The notes under the pieces are model-generated. The model saw nothing but the letters and a program-made list of their open reading frames with translations, did no database searches and was not told the origin of the DNA. A DNA stretch of 32,000 bases from Isorropodon fossajaponicum endosymbiont JTNG4 (GTDB lineage Bacteria > Pseudomonadota > Gammaproteobacteria > PS1 > Pseudothioglobaceae), in contig NZ_AP013043.1 in assembly GCF_016592615.1 (NCBI RefSeq), positions 450,001-482,000 on the forward strand. The letters run 5' to 3'. Shown piece by piece: positions 12,383 through 22,261 of the stretch (position 1 is the first letter of the stretch; every line of letters starts with the position of its first letter). The position numbers and the translations under genes are program-made.

Positions 12383-13000
12383 TTAATTAAGATCGCTTAA
12401 TTTAATTTTAATCAAATTTTGCAATCCAGAATTTTTAGAAATTTGACTTAGGGCTAATTCATAATGTTTTTTAGCATTGTCAGTTTGCTTGTCAGCCAAA
12501 TAAATATCCCCTTTAAGTTGATTGTACAAGCCATCAAATGCACTATTAGGCGCAGTATTTAGCGTCTTAAGCGCTTGTTTGTAATGGCCTATTTCTAAAT
12601 GCAGGCTGGCTATTCTCATGTTGACAACTTTAGCAATAGAGACATTGCTTGTATCACTCAACGGAGTAAGGTATTCAAGTGCTTGCGTATAATTTTTATT
12701 AGCCACCGCATTTTTAGCTAGAATTAATGTTGCTTGGTCAAAATAGCCGCTACTTGCATGGTTGTTTTTTAGTTGTTCGTAGGCTTGTGTGTCGTTAGGA
12801 TTGGCGCTAAGTGTTAAGTAAATACTTCTCGCTTCAATCAATTGTGTGTGTTGATAATTTTTATAAGCATCAAAACCCCAAATGCCGCTTAAACCTAAGG
12901 TAATACCAACAACAATTTGTAGTGTATTTTCTTTGATCCAACGTTTAACTTGCTCAACCTGTTCTTCTTCAGTCTTACCTACTTCAATAAAATTTTTCAT
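12383..13000 (-). CDS. yfgM: YfgM-family (UPF0070) TPR-like membrane protein
   Basis: 205 aa with an N-terminal TM anchor plus TPR-like repeats. It sits in the conserved position directly downstream of hisS, overlapping it by 4 nt. Confidence 0.75.
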   Translation of the reverse strand: MKNFIEVGKTEEEQVEQVKRWIKENTLQIVVGITLGLSGIWGFDAYKNYQHTQLIEARSIYLTLSANPNDTQAYEQLKNNHASSGYFDQATLILAKNAVANKNYTQALEYLTPLSDTSNVSIAKVVNMRIASLHLEIGHYKQALKTLNTAPNSAFDGLYNQLKGDIYLADKQTDNAKKHYELALSQISKNSGLQNLIKIKLSDLN

Positions 13001-14268
13001 GTGTTTTCCTTAAAATATTTAATCGCTTCTTCTAAATCCATGGTTTGTTGTACTCCTTGGCCTTTTAGAGGTTTGATACTCACTTGATTGTTGTTTAATT
13101 CTTGCTCACCCAAGATTAATGCAAAATGCGCTTTGGCTTTATCTGCTTTTTTAAACTGACTTTTAAAACTACCCAAAGTGATGTCATTATAAAGGATTGC
13201 ATTAGGTAGTGCATCATGCAAAGTACTGGCTATTTGCATCGATTTAATCTGCGCTTTTTCACCTAATGCAACCAAATAAATAGACAAAGTAGTAGGCTCA
13301 ACTATCATTAGGTTTTGCGCTTCTAATAGCAACACCAAGCGCTCTAAACCAATCGCTAAACCAACTGCTGGTGTCGGTGTGCCACCCATTTTTTCAACCA
13401 AACCATCATACCGTCCACCGGCGCAAATCGTACCTTGTGCACCTAAATCAGTTGTCGTCCATTCAAATACAGTGCGGTTGTAATAATCTAATCCGCGAAC
13501 CAGGCGGGTATTAATTATATAAGCAATGTCTAAGGCACCTAAATAAGTCTTAAACTGCTCAAAGTGTTGTGCAGATTCTTCGTCTAAACAATCCATTAGC
13601 TTAGGTGCATCGCTAATTAAAGAGTGCATCGCTTTATTCTTACTATCTAAAATGCGCAAAGGATTGGTTTTTAATCGCCTTAAACTATCCTCATCAAGCT
13701 GGTCTTTATGCTGATTAAAATACACAACCAATACTTTTCTATAAGCAGCCCTAGCCTCACTAGAGCCTAAAGTGTTAATCTCTAATATAATATTTTTCAA
13801 ACCTAAAACTTGCCACAAAGCATGCGTCATTATCATAAGTTCAGCATCCGCCTTGGTATCATTTGCACCAAATACTTCAAGCCCCACTTGATGAAATTGA
13901 CGATAACGCCCCTTTTGCGGGCGTTCGTGCCGAAACATTACCCCTTGATAAAAAACTTTTTGAACCCCTTCTCTGGGCAAGTTATGCTCAATCATCATGC
14001 GCACACAACCCGCTGTGCCTTCAGGTCTTAAGCTTAATGACTCGCCGCTTGACTCTGTCCACGAATACATTTCCTTTTCAACAATATCCGTAGCCCCACC
14101 AATTGCACGACAAAAAGTATCCGTTTTCTCAACAATTGGCGTGCGAATATTTTGATAGCCATAACTAATAAACAAATTAAATATTGTCTTTTCTAACGAC
14201 AGCCAAAACGCAGAATCTTTGGGTAATAAGTCGTTCATGCCACGAATGGCCTGGATTTTTTTACTCAT
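12997..14268 (-). CDS. hisS: Histidine--tRNA ligase
   Basis: Class II motifs, including FRHERPQKGRYRQFHQ. The start was moved to the internal Met (MSKKIQAIRGMNDLLP), which matches the canonical HisS N-terminus. The track ORF extends to 14298. Confidence 0.93.
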   Translation of the reverse strand: MSKKIQAIRGMNDLLPKDSAFWLSLEKTIFNLFISYGYQNIRTPIVEKTDTFCRAIGGATDIVEKEMYSWTESSGESLSLRPEGTAGCVRMMIEHNLPREGVQKVFYQGVMFRHERPQKGRYRQFHQVGLEVFGANDTKADAELMIMTHALWQVLGLKNIILEINTLGSSEARAAYRKVLVVYFNQHKDQLDEDSLRRLKTNPLRILDSKNKAMHSLISDAPKLMDCLDEESAQHFEQFKTYLGALDIAYIINTRLVRGLDYYNRTVFEWTTTDLGAQGTICAGGRYDGLVEKMGGTPTPAVGLAIGLERLVLLLEAQNLMIVEPTTLSIYLVALGEKAQIKSMQIASTLHDALPNAILYNDITLGSFKSQFKKADKAKAHFALILGEQELNNNQVSIKPLKGQGVQQTMDLEEAIKYFKENT

Positions 14269-14401
14269 TTGTTGGTAAGTGTTAGGAGTTTTTAGCATTT
14301 TACCAATTTATATCTTATGGATTAGAAAAATAAAAAACAAAATGTGGTATTTATTTTTATGATAGAATTCCTTCAATTTCCTCAAACATCTAGGAGCATC
14401 C

Positions 14402-14837
14402 ATGCCCACTAACTACCGCTACCTATCCTTCGGTATCGCTGTTTTTGCTGCTGCTCTTATCATCTTCTCCCTTAACATCGACACTCAACCTAATAACAAC
14501 ACCTCATCTATATTTATCCAACCAACCCAAAAACCCTTTCAACAGCAACAACCTCATTAACACCGCCAATGACAGTGAATACAACCCCAATCTACCCCCA
14601 GGCTTTCCTAAACCTCTACCCCCACTAGACCAAGACCAACTCAAACAAACCGATGACTTAATTGCCCAAGGTGATGCCATCATTGCAGAAATAGACGCCC
14701 TAATCGTCACACTTGATCTACCCAAAATCAAACTAAGTAAAGCCGAACAAACCAAGCTAAACACCCAGCGCCAAAGCCAACAGACCCAATTAGCAGACAT
14801 CAGAGCTCAACTAGAAACCCTAAAGCAAGACCTATAG
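14402..14837 (+). pseudogene. Hypothetical membrane-anchored, Pro/Gln-rich coiled-coil protein, apparently frameshifted
   Basis: AGGAG (14391-14395) precedes ATG 14402, giving MPTNYRYLSFGIAVFAAALIIFSLN (TM helix), which stops at about 14560. An overlapping frame (track ORF 14445-14837) continues with a Pro-rich then coiled-coil sequence. The region is C-rich and unlike its flanks. Confidence 0.35.
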
Positions 14838-14847
14838 GAAATTAACA

Positions 14848-15123
14848 ATGCAAGCATTACTCACCCAATCCATCAGCCTAATCACTTCAACTCTATTAGT
14901 CTTCCTACTGGGTATATCTACCCAAGCAAGCGCAACCACAACTACAAACATTGATACCACCAACCCTAGTTGGCAGCACCGCAGGAGCTTTAAGCGTTAA
15001 CCAAGGTGCAGCAAACTACACCATCCCCATCACTGTCCCACCCGGTGTTGCAGGCATGCAACCCGAACTTAGTATTAACTACAACTCAAACGCTGGCAAC
15101 GGTATTCTAGGCATGGGCTTTAA
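14848..15123 (+). pseudogene. N-terminal fragment of an SpvB/TcB-type (Tc-toxin or Rhs/YD-associated) secreted toxin, frameshifted and truncated by the IS
   Basis: AGGAA RBS, then MQALLTQSISLITSTLLVFLLGISTQASA (signal peptide). After a frame change (14934-14966) comes GSTAGALSVNQGAANYTIPITVPPGVAGMQPELSINYNSNAGNGILGMGF, the hallmark N-terminal motif of SpvB-domain toxins. The sequence ends at the IS left end (15124). Confidence 0.7.
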
Positions 15124-15150
15124 TGCAATGCTCTAACCTACTTGGACACA
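15124..15150. repeat. IS left terminal inverted repeat
   Basis: These 27 nt are identical to the terminal 27 nt of the second copy at 31501-31527. Confidence 0.85.
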
Positions 15151-15188
15151 AAGATAGCCTTATAATACAAACCATAAGGAGGTCAGTA

Positions 15189-15540
15189 ATGACACAATAT
15201 AAATCAAGAAAACAACGAGTGACTTTTACCGTTGAACATTCTGTTCAATACCCCCTTGAGGGGGAAACACTAGATTATGCCAAACTCATGGTGCATGAGA
15301 ATTACACCAATAAAAAAAATCATGATAATATCAGGAGCTTGCTCCTCAGCAGTTAGCAGATGGAGAAAACAATACCTAGCAGAGCTTGGTGGACAAACAC
15401 CAGAGTCAGGCAAAGCGCTGACTTCTGAACAACAAACAATACAACTGCTTGAGAAACAACTTTGGCGCGCACAAAGGGACAATGAAATCTTAAAAAAGGC
15501 AACAGCCTTGTTCGCTGTGGACAATCACCAAGTGATATGA
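15189..15540 (+). pseudogene. IS3 transposase OrfA (HTH), frameshifted
   Basis: TATAAT (15161-15166) and AAGGAGG (15176-15182) precede ATG 15189. MTQYKSRKQRVTFT... runs to a stop at 15354. Homology (KKIMIISGACSSAVSRWRKQY...RDNEILKKATALFA) continues in the +1 frame. The switch fits one extra A in the A8 run at 15312-15319. Confidence 0.8.
15492..15498 (+). promoter_or_regulatory. Programmed -1 ribosomal frameshift heptamer A AAA AAG (orfA to orfB)
   Basis: The heptamer is in the X XXY YYZ phase of orfA. The -1 frame is the orfB frame (both frame 0 mod 3). Confidence 0.7.
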
Positions 15541-16394
15541 TTATCAAGATAAACAAGGCTTGCCAACAATACAATACTAAAGAATTATGAGCATTACTCA
15601 AACTTCCTCGCAGTAGTTATTACTATCAAGTCAAAGATAAGCGAGTAAACAACAACACCAACGCTATGATTAAATTAATCAAACAAACTGCTATTGAAGT
15701 TGGATACACCTATGGCAAACGCAGAATGCGAGTAGTTTTGAATAACCAAGGTTATAACATTGGTATTTACCAAACTGCAACGCTAATGAAAAAAGCCAAT
15801 GTAGTTGCCATACGCCCAAGAAAGCGTCATTATTACCCTAATACTAGATTGATGTTTAAAAAGGCAAAAAACCTATTAAATCGTGTGTTTGAGCAGCAAT
15901 CAATTAATACGCATTGGGTTGGTGATATTACCTATATCAAAACCTATCAAGGTGGGAGTTATTTAGCCAGTGTGTTGGATTTAGGCTCAAGACAAGTTGT
16001 TGGTTGGGCATTGTCAAAACAGCCTAATGCTCAGTTGGCAAAGGATGCGCTTAGTAATGCTGTGTCTAGACACCAGCCCAATACAAATAAACACATGTTC
16101 CACTCTGATCAAGGGACTCAATACTCTTCTAAAGTTTTTATTGATTATTGCAACAAGAACAACATTACTCAAAGCATGAGCAGGCGAGGTAATTGTTGGG
16201 ATAATGCGGTCATGGAGCGTTTCTTTAGAAGTCTGAAGACTGAGAGATTAAATTATCAAAGTTTTGCAAATCATAGTGAAGTCGTGCAAAATGTAGAGGG
16301 TTATATCTACTTGTATAATTACAAAAGGATTCATTCAGCGATTGGGTATTTAACACCTGCTCAAAAGATGGCTGAATTGAAAAAAGCGGCTTGA
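15498..16394 (+). pseudogene. IS3 transposase OrfB (DDE integrase domain) with a premature TGA
   Basis: The orfB frame reads ...MIIKINKACQQYNTKEL*ALLKLPRSSYYYQ. TGA at 15588-15590 sits where family members usually have Cys. The long ORF 15666-16394 (242 aa) carries the catalytic core. Confidence 0.8.
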
Positions 16395-19597: not shown

Positions 19598-20736
19598 TTA
19601 GAGGTCTATGTCTTTTTGGGCTTTAATATTTGCCCTAAAAGCGTGTTTAATGTCTTTAACTTCACTTACTGTGTCAGCAAGTTTGACTAAATTTTAGCTA
19701 GCCGCTCTACCTGTGATAATCACATGTTGATTTTTTGGGCGATCGGCTAAAACGTCAAGAATTTTTTGCTCATCAAGATATTTATAATTAATCATGTAAG
19801 TAAGTTCATCTAAAACCACCAAGTCAATGGATTGATTGGTTAGATATTTTCCAGCTTCAGACCAAGTTTTAACAGCTATTTTAGTGTCAAATGCTTTGTC
19901 TTGAGTGTCCCAAGTAAAACCTGTTTTCATCAGTGCGGTTTGTACGTTGGGTTGTTTGGCTAGAAATATATCTTCGCCTGTGTCTTGCGTGCCTTTTAAA
20001 AACTTGGCAATGCCAATGTTCATTCCATAACCCAGTGCACGGCAAATCATGCCCAGTGCAGATGATGATTTGCCTTTGCCCAGACAGGGTGCGCGACCAG
20101 AGGTATCAGTAATGGTGCTAGAAATCATGATTGGTAATTCGACATTGTCGTCTTCAAAGACTTGTTCAACCGCAAAGATAGCAGCTTTGGCGTTGAGTGT
20201 ATCAAAGATGGTTTCAATCAGAATAATATCCGCACCACCTTTAATCAAGCCACGAGTAGATTCTATATAAACATCAACCAACTCATCAAAGGTGACGTTT
20301 CTAAACCCAGGGTCGTTGACATCTGGCGAGAGTGAACAAGTGCGTGAAGTTGGACCAATAACACCAGCAACAAATCTTGGCTTTTCAGCACTTGAAAATT
20401 CATCTGCTACTTGGTATGCAATTTCGGCACTTTCAAGGTTAATTTCATAGGCCAATGCTTCCATTTTGTAATCAGACATGGAAGTACGCGTTGCATTAAA
20501 AGTATTGGTTTCAATAATATCAGCACCTACTTTTAAGTAGTCTTTGTGAATGTCTTTAATAATTTGAGGCTGAGTCAGTGAGAGTAAATCGTTGTTACCT
20601 TGAACCAAAACATACCAATCTTTAAAACGCTCGCCACGATAGTCTTGCTCGGTTAATTTATGCTTTTGAATCAAGCACCATCAAGTACTAAAATTCGCTG
20701 CTCTAAAAGGGATTGTAATATTTGTTTTGTATTCAT
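19598..20736 (-). pseudogene. Chimeric remnant: the N-terminal Hcy-methyltransferase domain of methionine synthase MetH fused in frame to the C-terminal part of corrinoid adenosyltransferase CobO/BtuR
   Basis: ATG at 20736 gives [21 protein letters not shown], then a frame break. ORF 20674-19694 reads [20 protein letters not shown]...[11 protein letters not shown]...[15 protein letters not shown] (MetH) and runs directly into [31 protein letters not shown]...GFTWDTQ...[11 protein letters not shown]...HVIITGR (CobO P-loop region). TAA at 19694-19696 is followed in frame by NLVKLADTVSEVKDIKHAFRANIKAQKDIDL*, the CobO C-terminus. Confidence 0.85.
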
Positions 20737-20782
20737 GGTTGGCATTATACAAGTATATAATAAGTTCTAAATTGTAAGGGGT

Positions 20783-21184
20783 GTGGTGAAAAAGATATTA
20801 TTACTTGGATTGCTAATTACAAGTTTAAATGCAACTGCATTTTTAGACTTTAACAGTTATGGCTCTGGTTATAAGAATAACGATTGGCCAGTTTGGACAC
20901 CCATGTACTGGATGGAAAGGGTGGATAATAACAGCGCTCGTTATAATTACCCTTATCCCTATAACAATCAAGCATTTAATACCAATGCCTCACGCTTTAA
21001 TATGAATCAAATGCCAACCCCTAATCAGGCATATCAAGCAGAAAATAATACCACGCCTTTGATGTATGAAACGCCCGCAGCCATGTCGTTTGCTAACCCT
21101 AATCATGCACCAATCATAAATAACCTTGGGTCGTCAAAGTCTTATGCTGACTATCGATATTCACGTAATCCTCGCTCTTTTTAA
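20783..21184 (+). CDS. Small secreted Asn/Tyr/Pro-rich low-complexity protein (paralogue 1 of 3)
   Basis: 133 aa with a GTG start after AAGGGG. Signal peptide MVKKILLLGLLITSLNATA|F. The mature part is rich in N, Y, P, W and M. Confidence 0.6.
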   Translation: MVKKILLLGLLITSLNATAFLDFNSYGSGYKNNDWPVWTPMYWMERVDNNSARYNYPYPYNNQAFNTNASRFNMNQMPTPNQAYQAENNTTPLMYETPAAMSFANPNHAPIINNLGSSKSYADYRYSRNPRSF

Positions 21185-21209
21185 ATATTAGCTTTGCTTA
21201 AAGACCAAT

Positions 21210-21237
21210 TTGCATAAATATATCATTATGTTATAAT
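21210..21237 (+). promoter_or_regulatory. Sigma70 promoter for the second small secreted protein gene
   Basis: TTGCAT (21210-21215), a 16-nt spacer ending in TGT (extended -10), then TATAAT (21232-21237). Confidence 0.5.
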
Positions 21238-21269
21238 ATAAATTGAATTAAATAAATGGAGATATGATA

Positions 21270-21617
21270 ATGAAAAAGATTTTTGCAATAGTGCTATTGG
21301 CATTCACTCTAAGTGCAAATGCATTTTGGAACAGCAACAACACCCCTTGGGGCAACAACCATAATGGTTATGGCTATCAAGAAGATAATGGCATGTTTGG
21401 CTACAACCCATACGATTTTTGGGATCCTCGTTGGTATCCAGAAGAAATGGGCAATATGTTTGACGAGTTTGACAACAATGGTTGGAGTAACAACAACAAC
21501 TATTATAGTTATGGTCGTAATGGTTATGGTTTCGCACCCAATGGTTATACAAATACCCCATGGGGACCTGGCGTTGTACCTAACATGACTACACCAGTAG
21601 TACCAACAGCAAGATAG
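21270..21617 (+). CDS. Small secreted Asn/Gly/Tyr/Trp-rich low-complexity protein (paralogue 2 of 3)
   Basis: GGAGA (21258-21262) favours ATG 21270 (the track start is 21264). Signal peptide MKKIFAIVLLAFTLSANA|FW. NTPWG occurs twice, with many GY/NGY units. Confidence 0.7.
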   Translation: MKKIFAIVLLAFTLSANAFWNSNNTPWGNNHNGYGYQEDNGMFGYNPYDFWDPRWYPEEMGNMFDEFDNNGWSNNNNYYSYGRNGYGFAPNGYTNTPWGPGVVPNMTTPVVPTAR

Positions 21618-21633
21618 CATAAAAGCTATGATT

Positions 21634-21663
21634 AAAAAACCAGCATTAGTTGCTGGTTTTTTT
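21634..21663 (+). terminator. Rho-independent terminator
   Basis: AAAAAACCAGCA (21634-21645), loop TTAGT, TGCTGGTTTTTT (21651-21662), extending into a T7 tract (21657-21663). Confidence 0.75.
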
Positions 21664-21725
21664 CGCTAAAAGTAAGGCATTAGGTTTATAATAACGATTA
21701 ATTAATAATTAAGGAGTGAAAAAGT

Positions 21726-22142
21726 ATGAAAAAAATAATAACAGTTTCCTTGCTAATATTGGCACTTAATGCTACTGCAAATTGGGGTAATAATTGGAAT
21801 AGCAACAGTCCAATGAATTTTGGCAACAACACGCCTTGGAATGGTGGTAACTTTAATAACGCGCCATGGGGTGGTAACAATTGGGGAAACTCTCCTTGGA
21901 ACAATAATAATTCTTTTACGCCGTTTAGAACTAATAACAACTTCAGTCCTTTTAATAATAGCAATGGTCAGCCGTTTAGTTTTGACACTGGCACTACTAG
22001 ACCTTGTGGGTTTAATACCAACCCTAATTCGTTTGGAGCAATGAATAATAGTCCTTGGAATTATGGCTACAATCAAGCAATCCCAGTAACGGCTGAAACA
22101 GAAAATGACGAGTCTTCAGTATCAACCGAAGACACTCAATAA
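21726..22142 (+). CDS. Small secreted Asn/Trp/Gly/Pro-rich low-complexity protein with an acidic tail (paralogue 3 of 3)
   Basis: AAGGAG (21711-21716) and TATAAT (21687-21692) lie upstream. Signal peptide MKKIITVSLLILALNATA|NW. About 34 of 138 residues are Asn (hand count). Repeated N-x-P-W-G/N units: NTPWN, NAPWG, NSPWN twice. C-terminal tail AETENDESSVSTEDTQ. Confidence 0.7.
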   Translation: MKKIITVSLLILALNATANWGNNWNSNSPMNFGNNTPWNGGNFNNAPWGGNNWGNSPWNNNNSFTPFRTNNNFSPFNNSNGQPFSFDTGTTRPCGFNTNPNSFGAMNNSPWNYGYNQAIPVTAETENDESSVSTEDTQ

Positions 22143-22158
22143 ATCTAAGTTGTGTAGT

Positions 22159-22183
22159 AAAACCGGCTTTATGCTGGTTTTTT
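22159..22183 (+). terminator. Rho-independent terminator, resembling the one at 21634
   Basis: AAAACCGGC, loop TTTAT, GCTGGTTTT (one G.U pair), extending into a T6 tract. Confidence 0.65.
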
Positions 22184-22261
22184 ATTGCCTGATTTGCTGC
22201 AAGCATTATGCTCATTAATGCTTGTCTGGGTTAAAATACTCATTAAACCTAGGAATAAAAA

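What the first reader, a model, noticed from the sequence alone, without database searches (positions are those of the whole stretch)
20783..22186. Tandem trio of secreted Asn/Trp/Gly/Tyr/Pro-rich low-complexity proteins with a shared N-x-P-W-G/N motif
Three consecutive same-strand genes (133, about 115 and 138 aa) each encode a Sec-type signal peptide ending in a similar cleavage context: LNATA|F, LSANA|FW and LNATA|NW. Each mature protein is extremely biased in composition. Paralogue 3 is about 25 % Asn by hand count, has 7 Trp, and has no charged residue across roughly the first 50 mature positions, then ends in an acidic tail. The pentapeptide N-[TSA]-P-W-[GN] recurs 6 times across paralogues 2 and 3, and paralogue 2 adds regularly spaced GY/NGY units. 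Paralogue 2 has a good promoter, paralogue 3 has a TATAAT, and all three have purine-rich RBS-like sequences. The terminators after paralogues 2 and 3 resemble each other, which suggests duplication of a whole expression cassette. I do not recognise a named family. Small size, signal peptide, regularly spaced Gly and aromatic residues and multiple paralogues recall sulfur-globule envelope proteins (Sgp) of sulfur oxidisers, but that link is only a hypothesis. Other possibilities are periplasmic or outer-surface structural, amyloid-like or host-interaction proteins. These genes are intact while many neighbours are decaying, which argues they are under selection.
Basis: partly seen in the sequence, partly recalled or inferred. 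Interest (0 to 1): 0.72.

Follow-up and report, generated by a model that had tools for sequence, protein, structure and literature searches.

The report
Secreted disordered protein array, sulfur-oxidiser clade
Three adjacent genes in a deep-sea clam symbiont encode small exported, structureless Asn/Gly/aromatic-rich proteins that belong to an unnamed gene array conserved throughout the SUP05 sulfur-oxidising bacteria; they are plausible coat proteins of stored sulfur globules, but this is not shown.

Summary
Three same-strand ORFs (133, 117 and 138 aa) have Sec-like signal peptides, extreme N/G/W/Y/F/P bias and six N[TSA]PW[GN] motifs. The window comes from the Isorropodon fossajaponicum endosymbiont JTNG4 (SUP05/Thioglobaceae).

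The trio is a reduced copy of a tandem array found between metH and a HIT gene across 66 SUP05-clade genomes. Free-living forms carry four families, A-B-C-D. The window has A (P1), B (P2) and D (P3). The most reduced clam symbionts keep only B.

B and D are homologous through the missing type C (hhalign 99.4 % and 98.7 %). P1 is a separate co-conserved family. P2 and P3 are under purifying selection (dN/dS 0.12-0.31), and P1 and P2 are predicted disordered.

No Pfam or NCBIfam family matches. The Pfam sulfur-globule family SGP (PF17228) does not match either, although UniRef names three P2 orthologues "Sulfur globule protein CV1".

Type D shares its GPF/SPF repeats with a second family (type E). 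Members of that family are among the most abundant proteins of Ca. Thioglobus autotrophicus and are probably the published putative Sgp proteins.

Best reading: periplasmic sulfur-globule coat proteins analogous to Sgp, not demonstrably homologous (confidence about 0.45). The host-interaction and junk readings are rejected.

The parts
20783..21184 (+). P1 = type A gene. Secreted 13.4 kDa mature protein with conserved motifs AFLDFNxYG..Y.DNDWPxWTPMYWME, YPY.N, F.M.QMPTP.QA, TPAA.SF and an invariant C-terminal Phe. Likely real start is GTG 20786, with RBS AAGGGG at 20776-20781.
   Evidence: ORF. 38 homologues, all in the SUP05 clade. 28 invariant columns. C-terminal F in 29 of 29 members. AF2 pLDDT 50.6.
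21264..21617 (+). P2 = type B gene. Secreted 11.3 kDa acidic protein with the family core DNGxFGYNPYDxWDPRWYxEEMxNMxDEFD, flanked by N/G/Y/W-rich segments and one GRNGY unit. Likely real start is ATG 21270, with RBS GGAG at 21258-21261.
   Evidence: 100 % identical to P0001 of the I. fossajaponicum endosymbiont JTNG4. Alignment A1 has 16 invariant columns. dN/dS 0.12-0.31. AF2 pLDDT 49.
21726..22142 (+). P3 = type D gene. Secreted 13.3 kDa protein, 28 % Asn in the mature part. It has NxPW and (S/G)PF repeats, the conserved tail PWNYGYNQAIPVTAE, and an acidic end. RBS AAGGAG at 21711-21716.
   Evidence: ORF. 19 type D genes found by tblastn and ORF extraction in SUP05 genomes. hhalign C-D 98.7 %. 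dN/dS 0.20-0.27.
21209..21237 (+). Sigma-70-like promoter before P2: TTTGCA, 17-nt spacer, extended -10 TG-TATAAT.
   Evidence: 10 of 12 matches. This is a consensus match only. The number of sites in the region is not above shuffle expectation.
21634..21662 (+). Intrinsic terminator after P2: A-run, CCAGCA-UUAGU-UGCUGG hairpin, U-run.
   Evidence: RNAfold -17.6 kcal/mol. Aligns with the terminator after P3.
22159..22183 (+). Intrinsic terminator after P3: AAAA, CCGGC-UUUAU-GCUGG hairpin, UUUUUU.
   Evidence: RNAfold -17.5 kcal/mol. Alignment.

Best explanation
The three genes are the local version (types A, B and D) of a clade-wide tandem array of Sec-exported, intrinsically disordered, Asn/Gly/aromatic-rich proteins of SUP05/Thioglobaceae sulfur oxidisers.

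The most likely role is structural: they coat or organise the periplasmic elemental-sulfur globules that this clade deposits. In that role they would act like the Sgp envelope proteins of purple sulfur bacteria, without being detectable members of that family.

Inferred mechanism:
- After signal-peptide cleavage the 11-13 kDa chains stay unfolded in the periplasm.
- Their many Trp/Tyr/Phe side chains contact the hydrophobic sulfur surface.
- The Asn/Gly/Pro-rich spacers form a hydrated, flexible shell.
- The invariant acidic core of type B (WDPRWYxEEMxNMxDEFD) serves as a protein-protein docking or nucleation module.

Type B is the indispensable component, since it is kept even in 1.02 Mb symbiont genomes. 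Types A, C and D are accessory.

Shown: export signals, disorder prediction for P1 and P2, conservation, synteny, purifying selection, and restriction of the close family to SUP05. Inferred: periplasmic retention, sulfur binding and coat formation.
For: - Every one of the 66 genome loci found with the type B profile is in the SUP05/Thioglobaceae clade (Ruthia, Vesicomyosocius, Ruthturnera, Thioglobus, Thiodubiliella, Bathymodiolus symbionts). The literature describes this clade as distinguished by sulfur globules and rDsr.
- The array sits at a fixed site between metH and HIT-ssb. Architectures are ABCD in 11 loci, ABBCD, ABBBCD and similar in others, and B alone in 24 loci, which include the reduced clam and mussel symbionts.
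- B orthologues are intact in all six vesicomyid symbiont loci, with dN/dS 0.12-0.31, similar to ssb. Type D gives 0.20-0.27.
- Distant type B relatives found by profile search carry the same core followed by Gly/Tyr tandem repeats, for example GGYGYPYGGGGRGYPYGGGG in P0181. This matches the published description of Sgp as keratin-like or plant-cell-wall-like proteins. P0181 lies on a contig with cbbL/S/X, so its host is an autotroph.
- Size (11.3-13.4 kDa mature), Sec signal, multiple paralogues and aromatic-rich repeats match the Sgp profile.
- Type D shares its repeat region with type E (hhalign 92.6 %, E 4.6e-7; reversed control E 0.25). EF1 homologues of type E, SP60_00725/730/735, rank among the most abundant proteins, and their count fits the '4 putative sgp, 3 detected' of Shah et al.. 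A type B-like 86-aa gene sits next to type E in a second cluster.
- UniRef names Rmag_0508 and the V. okutanii and R. endofausta orthologues 'Sulfur globule protein CV1'.
Against: - There is no significant match to Pfam SGP PF17228 for P1-P3, for 47 C/D/E members, for B orthologues or for distant relatives. The best scores are E 0.6 and E 3.8, 8.9-11.4 bits against a cutoff of 26.7. NCBIfam gives nothing, and NCBI calls them all hypothetical.
- The UniRef name is probably automatic.
- A. vinosum SgpA-C are described as extremely hydrophobic. Mature P1-P3 have GRAVY -1.06 to -1.28.
- In the EF1 proteome the syntenic genes SP60_00075-00090 were not detected, and SP60_00095 (type A by synteny) gave only 5 spectra. 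This is weak evidence, because B and D yield tryptic peptides of 29-70 residues.
- No sulfur-metabolism gene is linked to the array.
- I could not compare directly with the SgpA, B, C and D sequences.
Confidence: 0.45

Rival explanations
1. They are general cell-envelope or periplasmic structural disordered proteins with no specific link to sulfur, for example spacers or peptidoglycan-associated proteins.
For: No genetic linkage to sox or dsr; the neighbours are housekeeping genes (metH, HIT, ssb, bamD). The C-termini are conserved: Lys/Arg in 58 of 65 type B and 24 of 27 type C, and Phe in 29 of 29 type A. These recall envelope-targeting or attachment signals (my own knowledge: Lpp C-terminal Lys, OMP C-terminal Phe). 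The sequences are hydrophilic.
Against: Close relatives are confined to one sulfur-storing clade. Distant relatives look like Gly/Tyr-rich Sgp-type proteins. There is no lipobox and no beta-barrel pattern.
Confidence: 0.27
2. They are periplasmic metal- or mineral-binding proteins, for example Cu(I) or Fe handling through the Met/Trp/acidic core.
For: The invariant core contains W..W..EEM.NM.DEFD, a Met-x-x-Met plus Trp and acidic cluster. Five C/D members gave weak EF-hand hits, E about 0.3.
Against: All hits are far below threshold. There are no His or Cys ligands. No metal-transport genes are adjacent. P3 lacks the core entirely.
Confidence: 0.08
3. They are symbiosis or host-interaction effectors of the clam symbiont.
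For: They are secreted, fast-evolving low-complexity proteins in an intracellular symbiont. B identity is 67-87 %, against 87-96 % for neighbours.
Against: The array is most complete in free-living plume and OMZ SUP05/Thioglobus and is reduced in clam and mussel symbionts, with A and D pseudogenised or lost.
Confidence: 0.04
4. They are functional amyloid or curli-like fibres, or secreted Asn/Gly-rich microcins.
For: Asn/Gly-rich imperfect repeats and Sec signals.
Against: There is a Pro in nearly every repeat. No Curlin or Fap Pfam hit. No csgEFG, fapF, immunity or exporter genes are adjacent. AF2 predicts no beta structure for P1 or P2.
Confidence: 0.04
5. They are not real genes, only chance ORFs in AT-rich low-complexity DNA.
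For: Gene callers often miss type D and E genes. The exact sequences of P1 and P3 are absent from the 15-billion-protein collection.
Against: Orthologues exist across 66 genomes at a fixed locus, dN/dS is 0.12-0.31, motifs are invariant, and RBSs and terminators are present.
Confidence: 0.02

Closest known systems
Sulfur globule proteins SgpA/SgpB (CV1/CV2; Pfam SGP PF17228) and SgpC of Allochromatium vinosum
   Same: Sec signal peptide. Roughly 8-13 kDa mature size. Several paralogues per genome. Repetitive Gly/aromatic-rich, low-complexity sequence. Host is a gammaproteobacterial sulfur oxidiser with periplasmic sulfur storage and rDsr.
   Different: No HMM match. Asn/Trp/Phe-rich rather than Gly/Tyr-rich, especially P3. 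Hydrophilic by GRAVY. Type B has a conserved acidic core, DPRWYxEEMxNMxDEFD; none of the three sub-threshold SGP alignments obtained scored above 11.4 bits, and the one with a scored stretch (P0190) covered only the Gly/Tyr tail. Genes are clustered in one array, whereas the A. vinosum sgp genes carry widely separated locus tags.
Putative Sgp proteins of Ca. Thioglobus autotrophicus EF1 (Shah et al. 2019, PMC6509183); by my inference SP60_00720-00735 = 'type E'
   Same: Same clade. Secreted and low-complexity. N-terminal (N/S)(W/F)GP(F/W) repeats that align with the repeat region of P3/type D (hhalign 92.6 %). A type B-like gene is adjacent to type E in the second cluster.
   Different: Type E has an Ala-rich ADAxAK repeat tail that is absent from P1-P3, and lies at another locus (tpiA-secG/tsf-rpsB in L062). 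It was detected at very high abundance, whereas the A-D array products were essentially undetected by tryptic proteomics. The identification of Shah's sgp genes with type E is inferred, not stated in the paper.
Glycine/tyrosine-rich structural proteins (cytokeratin end domains, plant glycine-rich cell-wall proteins)
   Same: Short Gly/aromatic tandem units: GRNGY in B orthologues and GGYGYPYGGGGR in distant relatives. Predicted disorder.
   Different: Bacterial, periplasmic, Asn-dominated. The resemblance is compositional only.

Membership tests
Pfam SGP PF17228 (SgpA/SgpB, CV1/CV2) | Match to the family HMM at or above the gathering score (26.7 bits) | tested here: not met
   No SGP hit at E<=10 for P1-P3 or for 47 C/D/E members. 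Best scores elsewhere are P0190 at 11.4 bits, E 0.6, and P0007 at 8.9 bits, E 3.8.
Sulfur globule proteins (functional class) | Cleavable Sec signal peptide that targets the protein to the periplasm | tested here: met
   KK n-region, 11-14-residue hydrophobic h-region, A-x-A cleavage motif, invariant -1 Ala. Heuristic only; SignalP was not available.
Sulfur globule proteins (functional class) | Small mature size (about 8.5-13 kDa) and several paralogues | tested here: met
   Mature masses are 13.4, 11.3 and 13.3 kDa. There are 3 genes here and 4-6 in free-living relatives.
Sulfur globule proteins (functional class) | Regularly spaced Gly and aromatic (mainly Tyr) residues, keratin-like or cell-wall-protein-like | tested here: inconclusive
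   P2 has 13 % Gly and 23 % aromatic residues, with GY/NGY units. P3 has 28 % Asn and only 2 % Tyr, with aromatics mostly Trp and Phe. P1 has 3 % Gly. Distant type B relatives are clearly Gly/Tyr-repetitive.
Sulfur globule proteins (functional class) | 'Extremely hydrophobic' proteins (Kumpel et al. 2023) | tested here: not met
   GRAVY is -1.06, -1.23 and -1.28. Only 9-23 aliphatic (including Met) residues per mature chain.
Sulfur globule proteins (functional class) | Physical presence in the globule envelope; induction by sulfide or thiosulfate | not testable with these tools
   Needs globule proteomics, fusions or expression data. The EF1 tryptic proteome is uninformative for B and D, whose peptides are 29-70 residues long.
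Sulfur globule proteins (functional class) | Host stores periplasmic sulfur and has Sox (without SoxCD) plus rDsr | not tested
   No sulfur genes lie in the 32-kb window. This is known for the SUP05 clade from the literature and for vesicomyid symbionts from my own knowledge.
SUP05 'type B' core-motif family (defined here; unnamed) | Signal peptide plus DNGxFGYNPYDxWDPRWYxEEMxNMxDEFD core, located between metH and HIT | tested here: met
   P2 has all 16 invariant columns of A1. Syntenic with 51 loci.
SUP05 'type D' family (defined here) | NWGNxWNSNxPMNFGNNTPW start, NxPW and SPF repeats, PWNYGYNxxIPxTAE tail, no acidic core | tested here: met
   P3 aligns with 18 further type D genes. hhalign to type C gives 98.7 %, E 4e-16.
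Curli/Fap functional amyloids | Curlin or Fap repeat HMM match and a dedicated secretion operon (csgEFG, fapF) | tested here: not met
   No such Pfam hits. Neighbours are metH, HIT and ssb.
Bacterial lipoproteins (Lpp-like) | Lipobox with Cys at +1 | tested here: not met
   The residues after cleavage are F, F and N. There is no Cys in mature P1 or P2 and a single internal Cys in P3. The LPAM_1 hit has E 2.1.

The most novel reading that the evidence does not exclude
SUP05/Thioglobaceae build their sulfur-globule envelope from a clade-specific, convergently evolved set of intrinsically disordered Asn/Trp/Gly-rich proteins (the A-B-C-D array plus type E) that are unrelated to the Chromatiaceae Sgp family. 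The invariant acidic Met/Trp core of type B would be the essential nucleating or docking module, which would explain why it alone survives extreme genome reduction in clam symbionts.
Probability: 0.35. Interest if true: 0.6.

Novelty: new variant of a known kind. Interest (0 to 1): 0.5.

Why it matters
SUP05 bacteria and their clam and mussel symbiont relatives are major marine sulfur oxidisers and dark carbon fixers. Their ability to bank sulfur is thought to underlie their success across redox gradients.

- The proteins that build their sulfur globules have not been identified experimentally.
- This array gives a concrete and testable candidate set. It includes one gene (type B) that is retained under purifying selection in genomes as small as 1.02 Mb, which implies an essential role.
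- The work also shows a practical blind spot. Gene callers often miss these genes, family databases do not cover them, and standard tryptic proteomics is nearly blind to them.
- If they are not sulfur-related, they are still an unexplained, strongly conserved class of exported disordered proteins.

Tried and rejected
- Pfam and NCBIfam scans of P1-P3, of 47 C/D/E members, of B orthologues and of distant relatives gave no curated family and no SGP match.
- Cluster-name look-ups gave only 'hypothetical protein', plus the UniRef name 'Sulfur globule protein CV1' for three B orthologues. Distant relatives are unnamed.
- AF2 of P2 and P1 with family alignments gave pLDDT 49 and 51. There is no fold to search.
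- I tried to locate Shah et al.'s sgp genes. Fig. S5 is not held, and 'sgp' and 'globule' do not occur in the dataset. I mapped the array by synteny to SP60_00075-00095 and found only SP60_00095, with 5 spectra. Peptide-string searches then tied the abundant SP60_00730/735 to type E instead.
- Literature searches for Rmag_0508 or COSY tags, and for sulfur-globule proteins in vesicomyid or Bathymodiolus symbionts, found nothing specific.
- The consensus terminator scan missed both terminators, because the A/U runs extend the stem. RNAfold was used instead.
- I could not obtain the A. vinosum SgpA-D sequences, so there is no direct alignment.
- I did not trust my memory of those sequences.
Full report
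**What is there**

The window carries three consecutive + strand ORFs at 20783-21184 (P1, 133 aa), 21264-21617 (P2, 117 aa) and 21726-22142 (P3, 138 aa). Each starts with M-(x)-KK, a hydrophobic stretch of 11-14 residues and an A-x-A site: LNATA|F, LSANA|F and LNATA|N. No Cys follows the site, so they are not lipoproteins.

- P3 has 34 Asn (25 %) and 7 Trp. Its first charged residue is at mature position 50, and it has an acidic tail.
- N[TSA]PW[GN] occurs twice in P2 and four times in P3. The shuffle means are 0.005 and 0.014, and none of 20,000 shuffles reached the observed count.

The mature proteins are 13.4, 11.3 and 13.3 kDa. Their pI values are 8.1, 4.2 and 4.1, and their GRAVY values are -1.06 to -1.28.

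P2 has a good promoter-like site at 21209-21237. P2 and P3 are each followed by a hairpin plus U-run (-17.6 and -17.5 kcal/mol), and P1 is not. The two terminators align. The signal-peptide coding regions of the three genes are 73-89 % identical over 18-31 nt.

From RBS spacing and the orthologues, the real starts are probably GTG 20786 for P1 and ATG 21270 for P2.

**Where it comes from**

P2 is 100 % identical to a 'conserved hypothetical protein' of the Isorropodon fossajaponicum endosymbiont JTNG4, on a 1.45 Mb contig. This organism is a vesicomyid-clam symbiont of the SUP05/Thioglobaceae clade.

The neighbours are housekeeping genes: glyA, radA, HIT, ssb, an MFS transporter, bamD, spoT, tolB, pyrG, hisS, der and msbA. 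The window holds no sulfur-metabolism gene.

**No curated family**

Pfam and NCBIfam give nothing for any of the three proteins.

**The trio is part of a clade-wide array**

A scan of 185,579 species-representative genomes with the P2-family alignment returned 66 loci. Every one of them is in Ruthia, Vesicomyosocius, Ruthturnera, Thioglobus, Thiodubiliella, Bathymodiolus symbionts or unnamed SUP05 MAGs.

tblastn and ORF extraction on these loci show four families in fixed order between metH (opposite strand) and HIT-ssb:
- **Type A (= P1).** AFLDFNxYG..DNDWPxWTPMYWME, YPYNN, F.MSQMPTP.QA, TPAA.SF, and always a C-terminal Phe.
- **Type B (= P2).** Core DNGxFGYNPYDxWDPRWYxEEMxNMxDEFD.
- **Type C.** A P3-like signal peptide, a variant core NNPYSMFTPDWFSEEMDDMMDEFD, many NNGPW repeats and a SNYGYNxxIP tail.
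- **Type D (= P3).** No core, NxPW and SPF repeats, and a PWNYGYNQAIPxTAE tail.

The architectures found were ABCD (11 loci), ABC, ABBC, ABBCD, ABBBCD and similar, and B alone in 24 loci. The window is the only ABD. Only 108 bp separate P2 and P3, and the same B-D spacing is seen in two Ruthturnera genomes.

In the vesicomyid symbionts:
- Type B is always intact.
- Type A is a remnant or frameshifted in L001, L002, L004 and L006.
- Type D is intact in L003 and L006, a remnant in L004 and absent in L001, L002 and L005.

The Thiodubiliella and Bathymodiolus-type symbiont loci L012, L041, L042, L045, L047 and L054 keep only B.

**Are they paralogues?**

I ran profile-profile comparison on the mature regions only, using reversed sequences as a composition control.

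| Pair | Probability | E-value | Note |
|---|---|---|---|
| B-C | 99.4 % | 5e-21 | |
| C-D | 98.7 % | 4e-16 | |
| B-D | not significant | 0.03 | |
| A-B | 20 % | 1e-3 | 14 columns, DWPVWTPMYWMERV against FWDPRWYPEEMGNM; control E 0.17 |
| A-C, A-D | not significant | | |

P2 and P3 are therefore homologous through type C, which this genome lacks. P1 is a separate family that shares only a related signal peptide and perhaps one short motif.

**Selection and structure**

NG86 dN/dS against close relatives:
- Type B: 0.12-0.31.
- Type D: 0.20-0.27.
- Neighbouring genes: 0.06-0.33.
- Degraded type A remnants in other symbionts: 0.70-0.88 in L001, L002 and L006, but 0.16 for the best-scoring fragment of the frameshifted L004 copy.

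AF2 with family alignments gives mean pLDDT 49 for P2 and 51 for P1. Only the signal helix is confidently structured. Both are predicted to be intrinsically disordered. P3 was not modelled.

**How far the family reaches**

A full HMM search of 1.84 billion representative proteins with the type B profile found only 72 hits at E<=1e-3. The distant hits keep a signal peptide, an N/G/W segment and the core NPYDEWDPRYWMEEMEDM.DDD. After that they carry Gly/Tyr/Pro tandem repeats, for example GGYGYPYGGGGRGYPYGGGG and YGYAPYGYAP.

All of them are unnamed. One, P0181, lies on a contig with cbbL, cbbS and cbbX, so its host is an autotroph. Another, P0187, lies directly after a HIT gene, as in the window.

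**Test of the sulfur-globule idea**

*For the idea:*
- SUP05 is described as distinguished by sulfur-globule formation and rDsr.
- Ca. T. autotrophicus EF1 makes periplasmic globules and has 'four putative sgp genes', three of which were seen in the proteome.
[quoted passage not shown] P2 and the distant type B relatives fit this description.
- UniRef names the B orthologues of R. magnifica (Rmag_0508), V. okutanii and R. endofausta 'Sulfur globule protein CV1'.

*Against the idea:*
- The Pfam SGP model (PF17228) exists but matches nothing here. That covers P1-P3, 47 C/D/E members, B orthologues including Rmag_0508 and distant relatives. The best scores are 8.9-11.4 bits against a cutoff of 26.7.
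- NCBI annotates all of them as hypothetical, although PGAP does label Sgp proteins in Thiocapsa. The UniRef name is therefore probably an automatic prediction.
- A. vinosum SgpA-C are called extremely hydrophobic. P1-P3 are strongly hydrophilic on the Kyte-Doolittle scale.

**Which genes did Shah et al. mean?**

By synteny in EF1, ssb is SP60_00050, HIT is SP60_00070 and metH is SP60_00100. The array must therefore be SP60_00075-00095. Only SP60_00095 appears in the proteome. It is 145 aa, uncharacterised, type A by position, and has 5 spectra.

In contrast, SP60_00725, SP60_00730 and SP60_00735 are three consecutive 'extracellular' or unknown proteins of 176, 174 and 171 aa. They have 646, 311 and 813 aerobic spectral counts, and SP60_00720 is undetected. 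Peptides of SP60_00730 and SP60_00735 were retrieved: FAGVADANAK, GQADAFAK and AQADAYAK. These match a 171-aa protein that I found in a second SUP05 cluster, at L062 3334-3849. It has NWGPF repeats and an Ala-rich ADAxAK tail, and I call it type E.

Four genes with three detected fits the paper's statement. I therefore infer that Shah's Sgp candidates are type E, not the A-D array.

Two links connect the two sets:
- The repeat region of type D aligns with that of type E (hhalign 92.6 %, E 4.6e-7; reversed control E 0.25).
- An 86-aa type B-like gene ending in QDNGIFGYNPYNIMDPRWMLEEMSNVID sits next to type E.

Non-detection of B, C and D in EF1 is weak evidence. Mature P2 and P3 give tryptic peptides of 29-70 residues.

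**Conclusion**

The genes are functional, exported proteins under purifying selection, and P1 and P2 are predicted to be disordered. They belong to an unnamed SUP05-wide array whose type B member is retained in genomes as small as 1.02 Mb.

The best-supported function is a structural role at periplasmic sulfur globules, analogous to Sgp (confidence about 0.45). Membership of the Sgp Pfam family was tested and not met, so 'works like an Sgp' is a hypothesis and 'is an Sgp' is not supported.

The main rival is a sulfur-independent envelope role (about 0.27). The conserved C-terminal Lys/Arg of types B and C and the conserved C-terminal Phe of type A could point that way. The host-interaction, amyloid or microcin, and junk readings are disfavoured by the phyletic pattern, the gene context and the selection data.

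Noticed in passing
window 19694-20674 (-): Chimeric ORF. The N-terminal 195 residues of methionine synthase MetH are fused to residues about 38-164 of cob(I)yrinic acid a,c-diamide adenosyltransferase. Relatives carry an 80-92 % identical metH N-terminal segment (194 aa) at this position; its full length there was not checked. This looks like a deletion-generated pseudogene and suggests loss of B12-dependent methionine synthesis in this symbiont.
   Followed up: partly
window 14848-16394 (+): A 61-aa fragment at 14951-15136 matches the N-terminus of the SpvB toxin-complex domain (PF03534, E 1.7e-9, profile positions 4-45 of 287). It is followed by an IS3 element, with an orfA-like HTH_Tnp_1 ORF at 15277-15540 and a transposase at 15666-16394 (NF033516, E 8e-77). 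This appears to be a toxin-related gene truncated by IS insertion.
   Followed up: partly
L062 2272-4264 (also L061, L063, L064): A second SUP05 cluster of secreted low-complexity proteins lies between tpiA-secG and tsf-rpsB. It holds a 188-aa protein, the 171-aa 'type E' protein (NWGPF repeats plus ADAxAK Ala-rich tail) and an 86-aa type B-like protein. In EF1, SP60_00730 and SP60_00735 match type E by their peptides, and together with the adjacent SP60_00725 they are among the most abundant proteins of Ca. T. autotrophicus.
   Followed up: partly
families A-D across L001-L066: The C-termini are conserved. Type A always ends in Phe (29 of 29), type B in Lys/Arg (58 of 65), type C in Lys/Arg (24 of 27), and type D in Lys or Glu. 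This may be a targeting or attachment signal. It is unexplained.
   Followed up: no
P0002, P0005, P0007, P0059 versus window 21264-21617: The GRNGY tandem unit in type B orthologues varies in copy number, from 1 in this window to 4-5 in Vesicomyosocius. This is repeat expansion and contraction in an otherwise conserved gene.
   Followed up: no
L067-L069 (GCA_015488755.1, GCA_027070535.1): A distant type B relative (P0187) also lies immediately downstream of a HIT-family gene, as in the window. The HIT adjacency may be ancient. The organism was not identified.
   Followed up: no
window 20783-21184 and 21726-22142; L043, L053, L062: The exact sequences of P1, P3 and several type D and E genes are absent from the 15-billion-protein collection. 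The protein search for P3 found only 3 homologues, whereas tblastn and ORF extraction found 19 type D genes. Gene callers seem to under-call these low-complexity genes.
   Followed up: partly
window 13000-15000: GC skew swings strongly negative here (-0.18 to -0.36), in the region of hisS and the unannotated 14402-15136 segment. This coincides with the IS/toxin-remnant region. It was not analysed further.
   Followed up: no
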